A DNA stretch of 64,000 nt. It comes from a virus. This document shows, piece by piece, positions 18,336 to 40,619 of the stretch. Within the stretch, counting starts at the first letter, position 1. Each line of letters begins with the position of its first letter. A model generated the notes under the pieces. It saw only the letters and a list, made by a program, of their open reading frames with translations, made no database searches and was not told the DNA's origin. A program made the position numbers and the translations under genes. The stretch lies in the IMG/VR virus record IMGVR_UViG_3300037606_000137, positions 46,381 through 110,380 of that record; one strand, 5' to 3'.

Positions 18336-18431
18336 AAAATAAATAAAAATTTTTATATATCAAAATAAATTCTTATATTTGTTTTGTAAAAGTAAAAAGG
18401 GAAGAAAAAAAATTAATATATACAATTAAGA

Positions 18432-18591
18432 ATGAAAAATTTATCAAACATATTAGTGGATCGTTATTATGATCGTGAACCGGAGAGATTACTTGGGACT
18501 AACAATGTTATGTGTAAATTTTAATTATTAAAAAGATATTAAATTTTTAAACAAATAACTGAAAAGTCCCTTAGCAATAAGGGACTTTTTT
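18432..18591 (+). promoter_or_regulatory. Putative attenuator 1: leader ORF 18432..18524 (MKNLSNILVDRYYDREPERLLGTNNVMCKF) with antiterminator and terminator ahead of the tRNA cluster
   Basis: GGGACT (18495..18500) is complementary to AGTCCC in the 5' arm of the terminator. Leader codons match the downstream tRNAs. Confidence 0.7.
18562..18591 (+). terminator. Intrinsic terminator 14 nt before tRNA-Glu
   Basis: AAAAGTCCCTTA-GCAA-TAAGGGACTTTT followed by T residues. Confidence 0.9.
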
Positions 18592-18605
18592 ATTTTAAAT
18601 CATAT

Positions 18606-18677
18606 GCTCCTATCGTCTAACGGTCAGGACTCTACCTTTTCAAGGTAGCAATGAGAGTTCGATTCTCTCTGGGAGTA
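18606..18677 (+). tRNA. tRNA-Glu(TTC)
   Basis: Acceptor GCTCCTA/TGGGAGT, anticodon arm CTACC-TTTTCAA-GGTAG, T arm GAGAG-TTCGATT-CTCTC. Confidence 0.92.
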
Positions 18678-18759
18678 CAAAAAATAAATTGTAGTGTACA
18701 ATAGGTGAAATTTGTATATGAATGGTAAGACAGCTCGAGACTGTATTTATTTTTTTTAA

Positions 18760-18839
18760 CTAGATGCTTGAGCAGTTGGTTGAACTCGCCTGTTTTGGGA
18801 ACAGGAGCATTTGCGTAGGTTCGAATCCTACCATCTAGA
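18760..18839 (+). tRNA. tRNA-Pro(TGG), atypical D/variable region
   Basis: Acceptor CTAGATG/CATCTAG, anticodon arm CCTGT-TTTGGGA-ACAGG, T arm GTAGG-TTCGAAT-CCTAC. Confidence 0.85.
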
Positions 18840-19035
18840 CATAAATTATTGATAACAAACAAGTTACAATAAAAAATATATTTACTAGTAATGTTTAGTA
18901 AATTAAAGATAATAGTTGGATAATGAAAATATGAGCTGTAACTTGTATAATAGTAATTATAAGCTAGAATATAGAAATGATATAATATTTAAGTATTATT
19001 ACAGTAAGAAAGAATTAAATTGAATTGAAGTATTT

Positions 19036-19110
19036 TTTATGTGTGGTGTAATTGGATAGGCACGCTTGCGTTGAGTGAGTAGATTATTGGTTCGAATCCA
19101 ATACATGAAA
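19036..19110 (+). tRNA. Degenerate tRNA-like element, identity unresolved
   Basis: Acceptor TTTATGT/ACATGAA, D arm GTGT-AATTGGATAG-GCAC and a perfect T arm, but an abnormal anticodon arm. Confidence 0.5.
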
Positions 19111-19120
19111 CAAAAAATAA

Positions 19121-19191
19121 GGTCCATTGGTGAAATGGTATCATGACTCACTGTCTATGAGTTGTCGTCGGATCGTAACCGGCATGGACCG
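19121..19191 (+). tRNA. tRNA-Asp(GTC)
   Basis: Acceptor GGTCCAT/ATGGACC, anticodon arm ACTCA-CTGTCTA-TGAGT, variant T loop ATCGTAA. Confidence 0.85.
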
Positions 19192-19217
19192 CTAAAGAAA
19201 CAAAAATAATAAAATAA

Positions 19218-19290
19218 GGTCCTGTAGCACAATTGGTAGTGTAACTTGTTGTCTGCGAGATGGTTGACGGTTCGAATCCGTTCAGGACCG
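19218..19290 (+). tRNA. tRNA-Asp(GTC), second divergent copy
   Basis: Acceptor GGTCCTG/CAGGACC, anticodon loop TTGTCTG, T arm GACGG-TTCGAAT-CCGTT. Confidence 0.82.
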
Positions 19291-19386
19291 CAATAAACTG
19301 AGTTAGTGTACTACAAGTTCGAAACTTGTGATCTTGACAAAAAAAAATTAAAAAAGATGAAAAAAATAATAGTAAATAAAAATGTA

Positions 19387-19506
19387 ATGATAAGTGTAAG
19401 AAATATTTCTTATTCATATTATTATAACTTATTGAAATCTCAATGAGACTGAAATTGTATTTTAACAAATTTTAAGTCCTATTGAGAAATCAGTAGGACT
19501 TTTTTT
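19387..19506 (+). promoter_or_regulatory. Putative attenuator 2: Tyr-rich leader ORF 19387..19446 (MISVRNISYSYYYNLLKSQ) with antiterminator and terminator directly before tRNA-Tyr
   Basis: TCTCAATGAGACT (19438..19450, contains the leader stop) pairs at 12 of 13 positions with AGTCCTATTGAGA of the terminator 5' arm and loop. Confidence 0.8.
19474..19506 (+). terminator. Intrinsic terminator 4 nt before tRNA-Tyr
   Basis: AAGTCCTATTGA-GAAA-TCAGTAGGACTT plus T-run. Confidence 0.9.
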
Positions 19507-19510
19507 ATAA

Positions 19511-19553
19511 CCGACAGTATGCAAGTGGTTAAAGCAGGGGGATTGTAAATCCT
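19511..19553 (+). tRNA. tRNA-Tyr(GTA), 5' part of an interrupted gene
   Basis: CCGACAG acceptor strand, D arm TGC-AAGTGGTTAAA-GCA, anticodon arm GGGGA-TTGTAAA-TCCT. Confidence 0.85.
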
Positions 19554-19598
19554 GTTACAGTCAATTCGAATTTAATATATAAAGATAAAAAACTATAT

Positions 19599-20138
19599 AT
19601 GTGTGATTTGAAAAAATGTGAAAATTGTGATAACGATCATAATGGTGATTATGGAAGTGGAAGATTCTGTTCGAATAAATGTGCTAGAGGATTCTCAACC
19701 AAAAATAAACGAAAAGAAATAAATAAAAAAGTAAGTAATACATTACAGTTAAAATTAAATAATGGATTAACAACACAACAAGTAATACAAAAAAAATATG
19801 CAGCTAAACACGCTTCTTATATTAGAGAAACTGAAATAACTACATTATATGATTTAAGTACACGTACAATAAGTAAAATATTAAAAAGATTAAAATTACC
19901 ATGTTCATTATGTAAATGGTATGTTGAAGATGTTGTTGGTGATTTACATCATATAATAGAAAGAAAAAATGGTGGTTCAAACAATCATGATAATTTAACA
20001 TATGTATGTCCTAATTGTCATAGATTAATTCATTCTAATAAAATAGATAATAGTAAAATAATAAATCTTAAAGATTATATTGGTGACGAATGGAAAAAAT
20101 ATTATTATGTAATCAATAAAAAATTAATAAACAAATAA
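19599..20138 (+). CDS. HNH endonuclease inserted in tRNA-Tyr
   Basis: CSLC...HHIIERKNGGSNNHDNLTYVCPNCHRLIH and an N-terminal Zn motif (RFCSNKCA); TAATATATA box at 19573. Confidence 0.9.
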   Translation: MCDLKKCENCDNDHNGDYGSGRFCSNKCARGFSTKNKRKEINKKVSNTLQLKLNNGLTTQQVIQKKYAAKHASYIRETEITTLYDLSTRTISKILKRLKLPCSLCKWYVEDVVGDLHHIIERKNGGSNNHDNLTYVCPNCHRLIHSNKIDNSKIINLKDYIGDEWKKYYYVINKKLINK

Positions 20139-20142
20139 TTTG

Positions 20143-20185
20143 TTCTCTTCGGAGTTCGTAAGTTCAAATCTTACCTGTCGGACCA
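20143..20185 (+). tRNA. tRNA-Tyr, 3' part with encoded CCA
   Basis: Variable arm CTC-TTCG-GAG, T arm GTAAG-TTCAAAT-CTTAC, then CTGTCGG-A-CCA, perfectly complementary to CCGACAG at 19511. Confidence 0.88.
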
Positions 20186-20351
20186 CAACAATTTTAAGTT
20201 GTACTTCTAATTTTATTAAATTAAAACATAAATATGTTGATGTATTTTTGTTTTAATTTTTTTGTTTATATAATTGTATTCATAACAATTTAAACAAAGT
20301 TAAACAATTCATATATAATACTATAGAAAATATAGTAAATATAGTAAAGCT

Positions 20352-20885
20352 ATGGGAACAATAAAAGATTATATACAAGAAAGAATAACATTAAATCATT
20401 TACCTTTAAATATTAATGAATGTTTAGCTGTTATAGAAACATATGAAACAATATATTCTAATGTTTCAGAGAAAGAACGTTTTTTTTTATTTATCAAAAA
20501 TAAAGTTGGAGAAATACTAACAAATATTGATGAAGATTTGTCTGAAATTTTAGGATGGTTACATGTACATAAAAGTAAACAAGATATAGTTTATTTTTTA
20601 TTTGAAACCGAAGAAGATTATTATAATTGGTTAAGTGTTCGTAAAGATTTATATTTACAATTAAATGAAGATTACACAAGATTATTAAATTTTTTAGAAT
20701 TATCGACTATGGATTTCATTTCTGATATAACTACTAATTGTAATTATATCTTAGAATTAAAAAATAAAAAAACAGATTTTAAAAAAGAAGGATATGGTGT
20801 TGATGTTGAATCAACAATATCATTCATTAAATACTTAGGTGCATCATTTAAAAAAGGATATAACTTTAAACCAACAAAAATATGA
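20352..20885 (+). CDS. Hypothetical protein
   Basis: 177-aa ORF, ATGA-coupled to the next gene. Confidence 0.6.
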   Translation: MGTIKDYIQERITLNHLPLNINECLAVIETYETIYSNVSEKERFFLFIKNKVGEILTNIDEDLSEILGWLHVHKSKQDIVYFLFETEEDYYNWLSVRKDLYLQLNEDYTRLLNFLELSTMDFISDITTNCNYILELKNKKTDFKKEGYGVDVESTISFIKYLGASFKKGYNFKPTKI

Positions 20886-32309: not shown

Positions 32310-34241
32310 ATGGCAAATTCATTAGATTTAACAAAATTAACAACTGACGAGGGTTTATATCTTAGAGCAAAAGCAACATATGCTATTGGTCAACCTATTA
32401 TTGATGATGTTGAATTTGATATTTTAGAAGAACATTTAAGACAACAAGATTCGTTTGTTGTTGATATTGTTGGAGCAATTAAAATCAAAGGAAATAAAGT
32501 ATCAATTTCTAAAGGAAAGAAATTGTTTATTGCACATACAACACCAATGGGTTCATTGGCAAAAATTCAGTTCAAGCCTGGTTATGTTCCACATCCAGAA
32601 TTTTCACATTGGTTAACATCAAATGTTTTATCTAATACTGATCCTGTTTTAGAATTTGGTCCTAAGTTAGATGGTAATGCAATTAATATTACGTATGATA
32701 ATGGACAATTAAAATCTGTTACATCAAGAGGTGATGGTATTGAGGGACAAGATTACACAAAATGTTATCCATCAAATATACCTAAATACATTAAAGGTTT
32801 TACAGGCGAAATTAGAGGTGAAGCAGTTATGGATGTTTATGTGTTTGATAATACATATGGACCTGATTCAAATGCTGTAAAGAAATATGCAAATGCTCGT
32901 AATATTGTAGCAAGTGGTTTAACTAAAGGTGATCCATCAATGATTGCTGATATTGATTTTATTGCATTTCAAATTGTAGATTTTACTGGAGACACAAATA
33001 CACAATTAATTAAATGGGGATTTGATACATTAAATTTCTTAAAAACATATGCTTCATCACAAATGAATTTATTTGTATTTGAAAAAATGTATGCTGAATT
33101 TAAATACTATCGAGAAAATTGTAAATACCAATTAGATGGTATTGTTTGTAAAATTGAAGAAGAATATAGAGATGCAATCGGTGGTAATTCACATCACCCA
33201 TATTGGGCATTAGCAATTAAGTTTGAAACTAAAGAAGTTTATACAACTATTGTTAGTATTGAATGGTCATTAGGTAAACGTGGTCAATTAGCACCTGTTG
33301 CAATTTTAGCACCTGTTAATTTATTAGGTTCTGTTGTACAAAGAGCATCAGTATATAATGCGGATTGGATGTTGAAAAACAAATGTTATCCAGGTGCAAC
33401 AGTTTCATTGATTAAATCAGGAGACATTATACCAAAAATTGTTGCTATTACAATAGAATCTACAGAAGTATTTGAATTACCTACTGTATGGAATGGTAAT
33501 TCAGTTTCTTTTGATGGTGTTCAGTTGATGGTTGATGATTTTGAGCAAACGGATGCGTTTAAATCACTTCAATTACACAATTCAATTGTTGCACTAGGTA
33601 TTGAAGGAATCGGTCCAGCAACAGCATCTAAATTGCAAGATGCTGGACAAACACTTATTTCTTTATTAAGTACTAATCCTGACGGATTGAGAATGGAATT
33701 ATTGAAGTCTGATGTATTTAAAGATGGTCGGGACCTTGAAATTTTAGTTGAGAATGTATTTGCATTAACTAAAACAGAATTGTGGAAAGTTATTTATGCA
33801 ATGAATTATAGAAATTGTGGTAAAACAATTTCAAAACAATTAGGAAATTGGATGGCTAAAATTCCTTTTGATTTTAAAGGTTTAGAAAAAGCTGTTGTTG
33901 AAGCATTCATTATGGATATTGATAAACAAGATGAGGTTAAACATTTAGTTGGTATTTTATTAGCAAATAATGTTAATATAATTAAACCAGAAGCACCTAA
34001 AGCAGGAATCATTACTTATTGTATGACTGGTTCTCCAAGTAGCGGTCATGCAACTAAAAAAGACTATTCAAGAGACGTTGAATCAAGTGGTAAATGTATT
34101 GAATCATCTTTGACAAAGGAAACACATTATTTAGTTGCTGAATCATTAGCTGGAATGACAACAAAAATGCAAAAAGCTGAAAAGAATGGTACAAAAATAA
34201 TTTGTTATTCAGATTTTTTAGATTTAATTAAATCATTATAA
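32310..34241 (+). CDS. ligA: NAD-dependent DNA ligase
   Basis: PKLDGNA (KxDG), SRGDG, EIRGE, DGIVCK, ALAIKF, SGDIIPKI, HhH motif GIEGIG and a C-terminal BRCT-like domain. Confidence 0.95.
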   Translation: MANSLDLTKLTTDEGLYLRAKATYAIGQPIIDDVEFDILEEHLRQQDSFVVDIVGAIKIKGNKVSISKGKKLFIAHTTPMGSLAKIQFKPGYVPHPEFSHWLTSNVLSNTDPVLEFGPKLDGNAINITYDNGQLKSVTSRGDGIEGQDYTKCYPSNIPKYIKGFTGEIRGEAVMDVYVFDNTYGPDSNAVKKYANARNIVASGLTKGDPSMIADIDFIAFQIVDFTGDTNTQLIKWGFDTLNFLKTYASSQMNLFVFEKMYAEFKYYRENCKYQLDGIVCKIEEEYRDAIGGNSHHPYWALAIKFETKEVYTTIVSIEWSLGKRGQLAPVAILAPVNLLGSVVQRASVYNADWMLKNKCYPGATVSLIKSGDIIPKIVAITIESTEVFELPTVWNGNSVSFDGVQLMVDDFEQTDAFKSLQLHNSIVALGIEGIGPATASKLQDAGQTLISLLSTNPDGLRMELLKSDVFKDGRDLEILVENVFALTKTELWKVIYAMNYRNCGKTISKQLGNWMAKIPFDFKGLEKAVVEAFIMDIDKQDEVKHLVGILLANNVNIIKPEAPKAGIITYCMTGSPSSGHATKKDYSRDVESSGKCIESSLTKETHYLVAESLAGMTTKMQKAEKNGTKIICYSDFLDLIKSL

Positions 34242-40250: not shown

Positions 40251-40619
40251 TTATTTATAAATAATATTTACATTATTTACACCAAGATCTATATTTATTA
40301 TTCCAATATCTTGTACAGTACCAGATAATATATAAACGTTTATAATATAATCATTTGTAGATAATTCTGGGATATGTTCTTCAAATTGTTCTTTAATACT
40401 ATCTTGTATAGTTGTTGCTGGGAAACTTGTTTTCCATAAATATTTTGGTATATCAGCACCAAAATCTGGATTGCCTAAAACATCACCTTTATTTGTCATT
40501 AAAATAACATACATTTTAGAAATAACTGTATCTAAAAATGTAGTTGTTTCAATTTGTGTTTCGTTATAAAATGGATCAGTTGTTCCTTTTATATAAATAT
40601 CTGATATATCCGTTGCCAT
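40251..40619 (-). CDS. Baseplate wedge protein, gp25-like
   Basis: LMTNKGDVLGNPDFGADI. Confidence 0.75.
   Translation of the reverse strand: MATDISDIYIKGTTDPFYNETQIETTTFLDTVISKMYVILMTNKGDVLGNPDFGADIPKYLWKTSFPATTIQDSIKEQFEEHIPELSTNDYIINVYILSGTVQDIGIINIDLGVNNVNIIYK

What the first reader, a model, noticed from the sequence alone, without database searches (positions are those of the whole stretch)
19511..20185. tRNA-Tyr split by an HNH endonuclease gene with no obvious ribozyme
Both halves look intact: a perfect 7-bp acceptor CCGACAG/CTGTCGG, encoded CCA, and a class-II variable arm. About 590 nt containing a 540-nt HNH ORF separate them at the base of the anticodon stem. Joining T19553 to T20143 gives a canonical GGGGA-TTGTAAA-TCCTT arm, with a U| ... 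G| junction like a group I intron. However, only about 45 nt and 4 nt of non-coding sequence flank the ORF, too little for a separate catalytic core. A TGTT direct repeat sits at both junctions. Options: a recent lethal insertion, a ribozyme core overlapping the ORF, protein-catalysed splicing, or a two-piece tRNA. The intact upstream attenuator argues for retained or very recent function.
Basis: partly seen in the sequence, partly recalled or inferred. Interest (0 to 1): 0.8.

Follow-up and report, generated by a model that had tools for sequence, protein, structure and literature searches.

The report
Nuclease gene splitting phage tRNA-Tyr gene
A selfish DNA-cutting-enzyme gene, from a family that lives beside tyrosine-tRNA genes of very large phages, has landed inside this phage's tyrosine-tRNA gene with nothing visible to splice it out, so the tRNA gene is most likely dead, though every part of it is still there.

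Summary
The stretches 19511-19553/6 and 20143/5-20185 are two colinear, complete parts of one tRNA-Tyr(GUA). They are separated by about 586-589 nt, of which 540 nt are an intact HNH ORF (19599-20138).

No known splicing device is present:
- no Rfam hit to group I or II introns or small ribozymes, even at E<=10;
- no spare sequence, since the ORF is collinear with free-standing homologues;
- the insert ends are not tRNA-shaped, and there is no bulge-helix-bulge;
- no RtcB, RNA ligase or splicing endonuclease in the 110 kb held (28% of the genome).

Comparison explains the layout. The HNH belongs to a large uncharacterised family that sits in tRNA arrays of huge phages. In its closest clade, 8 of 11 relatives abut a tRNA-Tyr gene. 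Other lineages (L016, L025; L060 for tRNA-His) carry the same family inside a tRNA gene, entering at the anticodon loop. In L016 and L025 positions 39-47 of the outer gene are missing; in L024 the acceptor strands no longer pair. Those outer halves are debris.

The best reading (about 0.7) is a homing-endonuclease insertion that killed this tRNA-Tyr copy, caught before decay. A protein-spliced or two-piece tRNA remains possible (about 0.13). The scan has noted similar cassettes in other genomes.

The parts
19474..19508 (+). Intrinsic-terminator-like hairpin plus T run, ending 2 nt before the tRNA 5' part. No sigma-70-like promoter lies between it and the tRNA.
   Evidence: 12-bp stem with 4 GC pairs. 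Three such sites in the region against 0.3 expected.
19511..19556 (+). tRNA-Tyr(GUA) 5' part: acceptor strand, D arm, whole anticodon arm (GGGGA / TTGTAAA / TCCT+G or T). The last 1-4 nt are ambiguous with the junction repeat.
19553..19556 (.). TGTT, left copy of the 4-nt direct repeat at the insertion junction.
   Evidence: read directly from the sequence.
19541..19562 (+). 8-bp hairpin GATTGTAA / TTACAGTC. The tRNA's anticodon loop pairs with the first bases of the insert. In free-standing relatives the equivalent CTGTA...TACAG hairpin lies wholly in the HNH leader.
   Evidence: fold of the junction mini-construct; alignment of leaders.
19557..19598 (+). HNH leader. It is homologous to the leaders of free-standing relatives (TTCGAA box, AAGATAAA, A/T-rich promoter-like box 10-25 nt before the ATG). 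Homology to relatives starts at TTACAG, which fixes the left junction.
19599..20138 (+). HNH homing-endonuclease gene, 179 aa: N-terminal Cys-rich module, helix-turn-helix-like middle, HNH/zinc motif at residues 102-146. Intact, with composition like the rest of the genome (GC3 8.3% against 10.2 +/- 3.0%).
20141..20144 (.). TGTT, right copy of the junction repeat.
20143..20185 (+). tRNA-Tyr 3' part: position 43 (in one join), class-II variable hairpin, T arm, acceptor strand, A73, encoded CCA.

Best explanation
The HNH gene is a homing-endonuclease gene of a family specialised on tRNA genes in the tRNA arrays of very large phages. Its closest clade is tied to tRNA-Tyr(GUA). In most genomes it sits free-standing, filling the spacer beside an intact tRNA-Tyr gene.

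Here the cassette (leader plus ORF, about 584-589 nt) has been copied into the tRNA-Tyr gene itself. The entry point is the boundary between the anticodon stem and the variable arm. The probable route is repair of a break that the enzyme makes in the anticodon-arm coding DNA, using only microhomology (TGTT, and CTGTA/TTGTA).

The insertion destroys the enzyme's own target, so the genome becomes immune to further cutting. It also leaves the tRNA gene in two colinear pieces that no visible mechanism can rejoin. This tRNA-Tyr copy is therefore most likely non-functional. It is a young pseudogene in which nothing has yet been lost.

Shown: the split, the intact HNH, the absence of known splicing devices, the family's tie to tRNA-Tyr, and decayed equivalents in other phages.

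Inferred: the cleavage site, the repair route, and the lack of a mature tRNA.
For: 1. No splicing device.
- Rfam (4227 families) gives no intron or ribozyme hit in 18400-20600 at E<=10. There is none in the window at gathering score and no group I match in the 110-kb record at E<=1.
- The same model does find group I introns in related phages' tRNAs, so the method works on this kind of DNA.
- The ORF is collinear with 50 homologues of 168-189 aa. Only 42-45 nt and 4 nt are non-coding.
- The insert ends pair at best 6 of 7, with A/T and G:T pairs and no T arm, and there is no bulge-helix-bulge.
- The whole precursor is not unusually structured (z -1.8).

2. Family context.
- There are more than 500 homologues. 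In 60 distinct loci the gene sits in tRNA arrays, typically 45-85 nt after one tRNA and abutting or overlapping the next.
- WIN falls in a 12-row clade (aLRT 95, quick tree). In that clade 8 of 11 relatives have tRNA-Tyr as the immediate neighbour, while Tyr is only 5.4% of the tRNAs in these loci (binomial p about 2e-6). That test does not allow for the relatives' shared ancestry, so the p-value is optimistic.
- Lak A, B and C phages show the same order, tRNA-Tyr then HNH.

3. Decayed equivalents.
- L016/94/95/96 (HNH 60% identical): the tRNA-Tyr 5' part ends right after CTGTAAA. The 3' part is only the T arm plus a matching acceptor strand, and positions 39-47 are missing. ARAGORN calls another tRNA-Tyr next door.
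- L025/L101/L102 (44% identical): same layout, positions 39-47 missing. In the sister locus L024 the 3' acceptor strand no longer pairs with the 5' strand.
- L060: a tRNA-His 5' half, then a complete tRNA-His plus HNH, then the 3' half.
- L092: the HNH is followed at once by an orphan tRNA-Tyr 3' part.

4. The left junction maps where homology to the relatives' leaders begins.

5. A strong terminator and no promoter lie directly upstream of the 5' part.
Against: - Every tRNA element is retained and of normal quality, unlike L016 and L025. That fits either a very young insertion or selection for function.
- No other tRNA-Tyr-like gene exists in the 110 kb held, although the record is only about 28% complete.
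- The HNH has the genome's own extreme composition, so it is not a fresh import from a differently composed donor.
- A Tyr-codon-rich short ORF plus terminator sits just upstream. The chance of such a patch in that 200 nt is roughly 0.03.
- No transcript data could be examined, so absence of a joined tRNA is inferred, not shown.
- No uninterrupted allele was found.
Confidence: 0.7

Rival explanations
1. The split gene still yields a working tRNA-Tyr without a ribozyme. One route: host or phage proteins cut out the HNH RNA and an RNA ligase joins the exons. The other: the two pieces stay nicked at the variable region and work as a two-piece tRNA, held together by the 7-bp acceptor stem and D/T-loop contacts.
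For: - All tRNA parts are intact and the exons fold into a cloverleaf.
- The break lies outside the anticodon arm, so the 5' piece keeps a complete anticodon hairpin.
- No second tRNA-Tyr in the 110 kb held.
- Lak phages carry unexplained tRNA introns (PMC6784885).
- Earlier notes of this scan propose splicing by RNase P and RNase Z plus a ligase for tRNA-shaped HNH inserts (unchecked leads).
Against: - The insert ends are not tRNA-shaped and there is no bulge-helix-bulge.
- No RtcB, RNA ligase (PF09414) or splicing endonuclease in the 110 kb.
- Equivalent inserts in other lineages have lost essential tRNA parts, so the layout is not generally maintained.
- A terminator lies directly upstream.
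Confidence: 0.13
2. The layout arose by two deletions or unequal recombination from an array of the form tRNA-Tyr, HNH, tRNA-Tyr (as in L014), not by insertion into one gene. The 3' half of the upstream copy and the 5' half of the downstream copy were lost. The result is equally a dead gene.
For: - L014 has tRNA-Tyr on both sides of the HNH.
- These loci are full of tRNA fragments.
- A T-loop-like TTCGAAT follows the 5' part at 19566-19572.
Against: - It needs two exactly complementary deletions.
- In L014 the two flanking tRNA-Tyr genes differ in sequence, so their halves would not pair. The WIN halves pair 7 of 7.
- The 4-nt repeat and the lossless junction fit a single insertion better.
Confidence: 0.1
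3. A self-splicing or self-cleaving RNA is hidden inside the HNH coding sequence. It could be a degenerate group I core or an unknown small ribozyme.
For: - The insert ends in G and one possible 5' exon ends in U.
- AAGATAAA in the leader resembles the first bases of the tRNA-Tyr group I intron of L036.
- A 6-nt match AGGATT inside the ORF could pair with the exon end AATCCT.
Against: - No Rfam hit at E<=10 or in the whole record.
- The ORF is collinear with homologues that are free-standing and need no ribozyme.
- No guide sequence in the leader, and a 6-mer match is expected by chance in 590 nt.
- The fold z-score is only -1.8.
Confidence: 0.03
4. Assembly chimera: the HNH gene was joined into the tRNA by mis-assembly of a metagenome.
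For: The record is a metagenome-assembled fragment.
Against: - Both junctions are unique sequence, and the halves are colinear and complementary.
- The same kind of layout recurs in independent assemblies.
Confidence: 0.02

Closest known systems
Phage T4/T6 SegB, and from my own knowledge the phage T5 F-Tfl HNH enzymes: free-standing homing endonucleases inside phage tRNA gene clusters (PMC2330249; PMC13096335)
   Same: A nuclease gene embedded in a phage tRNA array, sporadically present, expected to cut tRNA-region DNA of competitors and be copied in by repair. tRNA-Tyr is also the tRNA at stake in the T6/Septu work.
   Different: SegB is a GIY-YIG enzyme and sits between tRNA genes. Here an HNH enzyme of an uncharacterised family sits inside a tRNA gene. 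No cleavage assay exists for this family.
[quoted passage not shown]
   Same: A homing endonuclease whose target and insertion site are the anticodon-arm coding DNA of a tRNA gene.
   Different: That enzyme rides in a self-splicing intron, so the tRNA survives. Here no ribozyme is present. The enzyme fold also differs (PD-(D/E)XK against HNH).
[quoted passage not shown]
   Same: Relatives of this HNH lie directly downstream of tRNA genes that carry ORF-less group I introns in the anticodon: L036 tRNA-Tyr at U35/A36, plus L046, L070 and L116.
   Different: In the window the endonuclease gene itself, not an intron, interrupts the tRNA. The described cases are in protein-coding genes.
Phage Aeh1 mobE, an HNH homing endonuclease gene that splits nrdA into two genes
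   Same: A free-standing HNH gene inserted into a functional gene without an intron.
   Different: The two NrdA polypeptides reassemble into an active enzyme. Nothing comparable is known for a tRNA cut in two in bacteria.
'Enigmatic' tRNA introns of Lak megaphages (Devoto et al. 2019, PMC6784885)
   Same: Interrupted tRNA genes, including a tRNA-Tyr(GTA), in very large AT-rich phages. Lak phages also carry this HNH family next to tRNA-Tyr.
   Different: The Lak inserts are about 93 nt, hold no ORF, and at least some contain a nested tRNA-like sequence. The window's insert is a bare protein gene.
Split tRNA genes of Nanoarchaeum equitans and archaeal bulge-helix-bulge introns (my own knowledge; PMC4090602 for tRNA introns)
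   Same: tRNA made from separately encoded or interrupted parts.
   Different: Those need a bulge-helix-bulge motif, a splicing endonuclease and a ligase. None was found here.

Membership tests
Group I self-splicing intron | Conserved catalytic core (P3-P8, P7 guanosine site), as scored by Rfam RF00028 | tested here: not met
   No match at E<=10 in 18400-20600, none in the window, none in the 110-kb record at E<=1. The same model finds the introns of L036, L046, L070 and L116.
Group I self-splicing intron | P1 helix: the 5' exon end pairs with an internal guide sequence, with a U:G at the splice site | tested here: not met
   The 42-45-nt leader has no GG-containing complement to AATCCT. The only match is a 6-mer inside the ORF with U-A instead of U:G, which is expected by chance.
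Group I self-splicing intron | About 200 nt or more of RNA free to form the core | tested here: not met
   42-45 nt and 4 nt are non-coding. The ORF is collinear with free-standing homologues.
Group II intron | 5' GUGYG, domain V, 3' AY | tested here: not met
   The insert begins GUUAC or UUACAG. No Rfam group II match. At 590 nt with a 540-nt ORF it is too short.
Small self-cleaving ribozymes (hammerhead, twister, pistol, hatchet, HDV-like) | Match to the family covariance model at either junction | tested here: not met
   None among the 23 hits at E<=10.
Bulge-helix-bulge (archaeal/eukaryal) tRNA intron | Two 3-nt bulges separated by a 4-bp helix at the splice sites, plus a splicing endonuclease | tested here: not met
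   The junction mini-construct folds into the anticodon-loop/TTACAG hairpin instead. No PF01974 in the record, though the genome is incomplete.
tRNA-shaped inserts (nested tRNA; cutting by RNase P and RNase Z proposed in earlier notes of this scan; Lak 'enigmatic' introns) | The insert's own ends form an acceptor stem with an adjacent T arm | tested here: not met
   Best end pairing is 6 of 7, all A/T or G:T plus one G:C, with no T arm. The non-coding insert sequence is too short for a tRNA.
HNH homing endonuclease of phage tRNA arrays | HNH/zinc catalytic motif intact | tested here: met
   Pfam PF01844, E 2e-7. C102, C105, D115, H117, H118, N132, C137, C140, H141 and H145 are invariant in 50 homologues including this one.
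HNH homing endonuclease of phage tRNA arrays | Sporadic presence at a conserved kind of site next to the putative target gene | tested here: met
   the gene lies in tRNA arrays in nearly all loci, and 8 of 11 clade relatives abut tRNA-Tyr.
HNH homing endonuclease of phage tRNA arrays | Site-specific cleavage of the endonuclease-free allele, and preferential inheritance | not testable with these tools
   Needs purified enzyme and the uninterrupted tRNA-Tyr gene. No uninterrupted allele was found.
Functional tRNA-Tyr (bacterial type) | Continuous transcript with cloverleaf, long variable arm, A73 and GUA anticodon | tested here: inconclusive
   All elements are present but split by 586-589 nt. 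The first pair is C1:G72 rather than the bacterial G1:C72. No RNA data.

The most novel reading that the evidence does not exclude
The split gene is expressed as a working tRNA-Tyr in a bacterial host without any ribozyme. Either proteins excise the HNH RNA and an RNA ligase joins the exons, or the product is a two-piece tRNA nicked at the start of the variable arm. That would be a kind of tRNA intron or split tRNA not described for bacteria or their viruses. It would also mean a homing endonuclease can colonise a tRNA gene at no cost.
Probability: 0.12. Interest if true: 0.85.

Novelty: new member of a known kind. Interest (0 to 1): 0.4.

Why it matters
On its own this is a selfish-DNA accident: a homing-endonuclease gene has broken a phage tRNA gene.

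Its value is as the cleanest specimen of a wider pattern. An uncharacterised HNH family targets the anticodon-arm DNA of tRNA genes in huge phages. Its genomes show three states:
- the HNH free-standing beside the tRNA;
- the HNH inserted into the tRNA itself.

Such cassettes probably drive turnover of phage tRNA sets. tRNA-Tyr in particular is a known target of anti-phage defence (PMC13096335).

Because nothing has been lost here, this locus is also the best place to test directly whether a bacterial system can rejoin or use a tRNA split by a protein gene.

Tried and rejected
- Searched for the uninterrupted allele or close relatives by exact DNA patterns in viral contigs and in genome contigs. 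Nothing found.
- Looked for synteny through the downstream ORF 20352-20885. No relatives.
- blastn of 7 kb around the site against GenBank phages found only Lak HNH matches at 69%. The phage has no near relative in the collections, so neither decay nor covariation of the halves could be measured.
- The four contigs carrying the L016 layout are identical over 1 kb, so they give no covariation either.
- Group I, group II and small-ribozyme readings were rejected.
- tRNA-shaped insert and bulge-helix-bulge readings were rejected.
- ARAGORN calls of 'introns' of 603 nt in L025-27 and L101-102 were rejected as artefacts that join halves of different tRNAs.
- Looked for RtcB, RNA ligase, splicing endonuclease and TyrRS in the record. 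None found, but the record is only 28% complete.
- The genome search 'relatives' is not available for a virus record.
- Read laying therefore could not be used, and no read-level or RNA evidence was obtained.
- The careful maximum-likelihood tree did not finish. Only the quick tree is cited.

Full report
**What is there**

The window is part of a 110-kb IMG/VR virus record. It has 23.5% GC, an estimated completeness of 28%, and the standard genetic code fits. A cluster of tRNA genes (Glu, Pro, Gln, Asp, Asp) lies at 18606-19291.

Directly after a strong terminator-like hairpin (19474-19501 plus a T run) comes the 5' part of a tRNA-Tyr(GUA). It has the acceptor strand CCGACAG, a D arm of bacterial tRNA-Tyr type, and the anticodon arm GGGGA/TTGTAAA/TCCT (19511-19553).

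The 3' part lies at 20143/5-20185. It has a CTC-TTCG-GAG variable hairpin, a canonical T arm, the strand CTGTCGG, A73 and CCA.

ARAGORN finds nothing here by default. With introns allowed it calls one tRNA-Tyr over exactly 19511-20185. The joined exons fold into a cloverleaf as the minimum-free-energy structure. ARAGORN still detects them when its score threshold is raised to 106-112% of default. The phage's twelve uninterrupted tRNAs are detected up to 100-120%.

**The insert**

Between the halves lie a 42-45-nt leader, a 540-nt ORF (19599-20138) and 4 nt. The ORF is an HNH endonuclease (Pfam E 2e-7; PHROG HNH families). It keeps every Cys, His, Asn and Asp that is invariant in 50 homologues. 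Its GC3 of 8.3% matches the genome's 10.2 +/- 3.0%.

An alignment of the leader with those of the closest relatives shows that homology starts at TTACAG (19555-19560). This places the left junction at 19553-19556. The right junction is at 20140-20144. TGTT occurs at both junctions.

Several joins give an equally good tRNA.

**No splicing device**

- All 4227 Rfam models at E<=10 give no intron or ribozyme hit in 18400-20600. Nothing appears at gathering score in the window. No group I match appears in the whole record.
- The model does work on this kind of DNA. It finds group I introns in tRNA genes of related huge phages: L070 at 54.8 bits, L046 at 49.2, L116 at 42.3 and L036 at 30.2 bits, E 4e-6.
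- The ORF has no extra segment compared with homologues that are free-standing, so there is no room for a core.
- The precursor is not unusually structured (z -1.8).
- The insert's ends do not form a tRNA-like acceptor stem, and the junctions do not form a bulge-helix-bulge.
- The 110 kb held encode no RtcB, PF09414 RNA ligase, splicing endonuclease or TyrRS. That is weak evidence, because most of the genome is missing.

**What the relatives show**

The protein has more than 500 homologues, the best at 60-73% identity, many on contigs of 30-390 kb. I fetched 160 further loci from metagenome and viral contigs.

In nearly all of them the gene sits in a tRNA array. It typically starts 45-85 nt after one tRNA and abuts or overlaps the next.

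In a quick maximum-likelihood tree the window's protein falls in a 12-row clade (aLRT 95). Eight of its 11 relatives have tRNA-Tyr(GTA) as the immediate neighbour, on either side. Tyr is only 5.4% of the 1003 tRNAs in these loci (p about 2e-6, not corrected for shared ancestry).

Lak A, B and C megaphages have the order tRNA-Tyr then HNH. More distant clades sit by Leu, Lys, Val, His or Thr genes. So this is a family of tRNA-gene-associated homing endonucleases, and the window's clade is tied to tRNA-Tyr.

**Other split tRNAs around this family**

- L016/L094/L095/L096 (a 388-kb phage, HNH 60% identical) hold a tRNA-Tyr 5' part that stops right after the anticodon loop CTGTAAA. A leader, the HNH and an odd tRNA-like RNA follow. 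Then comes only a T arm plus an acceptor strand that pairs 7 of 7 with the 5' part. Positions 39-47 are gone, and ARAGORN calls another tRNA-Tyr next door.
- A custom scan for orphan T arms whose acceptor strand pairs with sequence upstream of the HNH recovered the window and L016.
- The same scan added L025/L101/L102 (HNH 44% identical). Again the tRNA-Tyr 5' part ends after CTGTAAA and the 3' part has only a T arm and acceptor. In the sister locus L024 the 3' acceptor strand no longer pairs.
- In L060 a tRNA-His 5' half (to position 37) is followed by a complete tRNA-His, a leader, the HNH and the matching 3' half.
- L092 has an orphan tRNA-Tyr 3' part directly after the ORF.

Cassettes of this family have therefore entered tRNA genes at or just after the anticodon loop several times. 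Where time has passed, the outer halves have lost essential parts. They are debris, not exons.

**Mechanism proposed**

The recurrent junctions at positions 37-45 point to a cut in the anticodon-arm coding DNA. The CTGTA...TACAG hairpin in the leaders resembles the tRNA-Tyr anticodon loop. In the window that hairpin is completed by the tRNA's own loop (8 bp). In several relatives the ORF stops in the TAA of a downstream tRNA-Tyr anticodon loop.

Genomes carrying the enzyme must protect their own tRNA-Tyr. I see three states:
- a free-standing gene beside an intact, presumably variant, tRNA;
- the gene inserted in the tRNA itself.

The window is the third state, with a lossless junction and a 4-nt repeat. 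That fits repair by microhomology or fill-in rather than by long homology. These steps are inferred, and no cleavage data exist for the family.

**Why I do not go further**

Several points keep a functional reading alive at about 0.13:
- all tRNA parts are retained;
- no other tRNA-Tyr lies in the 110 kb held;
- the HNH has the genome's own composition;
- a Tyr-rich short ORF plus terminator lies upstream.

The last point is weak. Patches with at least 4 Tyr codons in 5 occur 28 times in the record, against 22.9 +/- 5.0 in shuffles.

Lak phages are reported to have unexplained tRNA introns (PMC6784885). Earlier notes of this scan describe both 'tRNA-shaped' HNH inserts and dead-halves cassettes in many other genomes. 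I used those notes only as leads. The tRNA-shape test fails here.

**Verdict**

This is a homing-endonuclease insertion that most likely inactivated this tRNA-Tyr gene (0.7). It is a new member of a known kind of event. It is of moderate interest as the most intact example of a widespread, unpublished-looking association between an HNH family and tRNA anticodon-arm DNA in huge phages.

Noticed in passing
L036:1140-1432 (also L107); L046:653-926; L070:374-680; L116:1163-1442: True group I introns (Rfam RF00028, 30-55 bits) interrupt the anticodons of phage tRNA genes: Tyr at U35/A36, a tca tRNA, Leu-taa and Thr-tgt. Each lies directly upstream of a relative of this HNH, a collaborative-homing-like layout. 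A 2014 review stated that all phage introns known then were in protein genes (PMC3984707).
   Followed up: partly
L013:291-379; L016:2010-2095; L021:1360-1446; L022:1285-1371; L023:1372-1457: A conserved tRNA-Tyr-like RNA of about 87 nt that ARAGORN and Rfam miss. It has an acceptor stem, a CTGTAAA anticodon hairpin and a T arm. A D-stem-like helix appears to close around the anticodon arm, and a GGTGG loop sits in the long 'variable' region. By eye, L021 and L022 differ by compensatory changes in three helices. It always lies next to the HNH (alignment A2).
   Followed up: partly
L060:49-160 and 775-805: A tRNA-His 5' half (to position 37) and the matching 3' half flank a cassette made of a complete tRNA-His plus an HNH relative. 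The cassette carries its own replacement tRNA.
   Followed up: partly
L025:1444-1500 (also L024, L101, L102): The HNH ORF has no ATG, GTG or TTG near its conserved N-terminus. The open frame runs back into the tRNA-Tyr 5' part, to a TTG in the D-loop region, with AGGAG just after the anticodon loop. The start codon is unclear.
   Followed up: no
window 19511/20181: This tRNA-Tyr has C1:G72, the archaeal/eukaryal first pair, together with a bacterial-type long variable arm and A73. The other tRNA-Tyr genes that I read in full (Lak-B3, L014, L016, L025, L036) start with G. No TyrRS gene lies in the 110 kb held.
   Followed up: partly
window 18561-18597 and 19474-19508: Two similar strong terminator-like hairpins (AAGTCC...GGACTT plus a T run) lie immediately upstream of tRNA-Glu and of the tRNA-Tyr 5' part. 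No sigma-70-like promoter follows either. How the tRNAs are transcribed is unclear.
   Followed up: no
L126-L171 (for example L135:1501-1632): The N-terminal module of about 50 aa (CxxC...GxYGSGRFC...CARGFSTK) is 65-84% identical in many loci where tblastn matches nothing beyond it. This suggests a shuffled DNA-binding module shared with other proteins.
   Followed up: no
L012:1438-1517; L020/L100; L004:3540-3614; L037: In several relatives the HNH ORF runs into the 5' half of the downstream tRNA-Tyr gene. It stops at the TAA formed by the anticodon loop CTGTAA, so gene and tRNA overlap by 14-38 nt.
   Followed up: no
G000:C1:28848-28921, 34115-34186 and 40313-40459 (outside the window): Two tRNA-like genes have irregular anticodon loops (ARAGORN '???', 4-nt and 2-nt anticodons). 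A second, weaker HNH match lies on the minus strand.
   Followed up: no
L002:563-727; L003:400-564: This is the Lak A/C 93-nt 'enigmatic intron' tRNA, called Tyr(GTA) in the paper and Ser(gct) by ARAGORN. From the sequence printed in the paper's Table S6, the insert holds a nested tRNA-like sequence with its own 7-bp acceptor stem and T arm. A shift of the intron by one nucleotide gives a canonical CTGTAAA loop.
   Followed up: no
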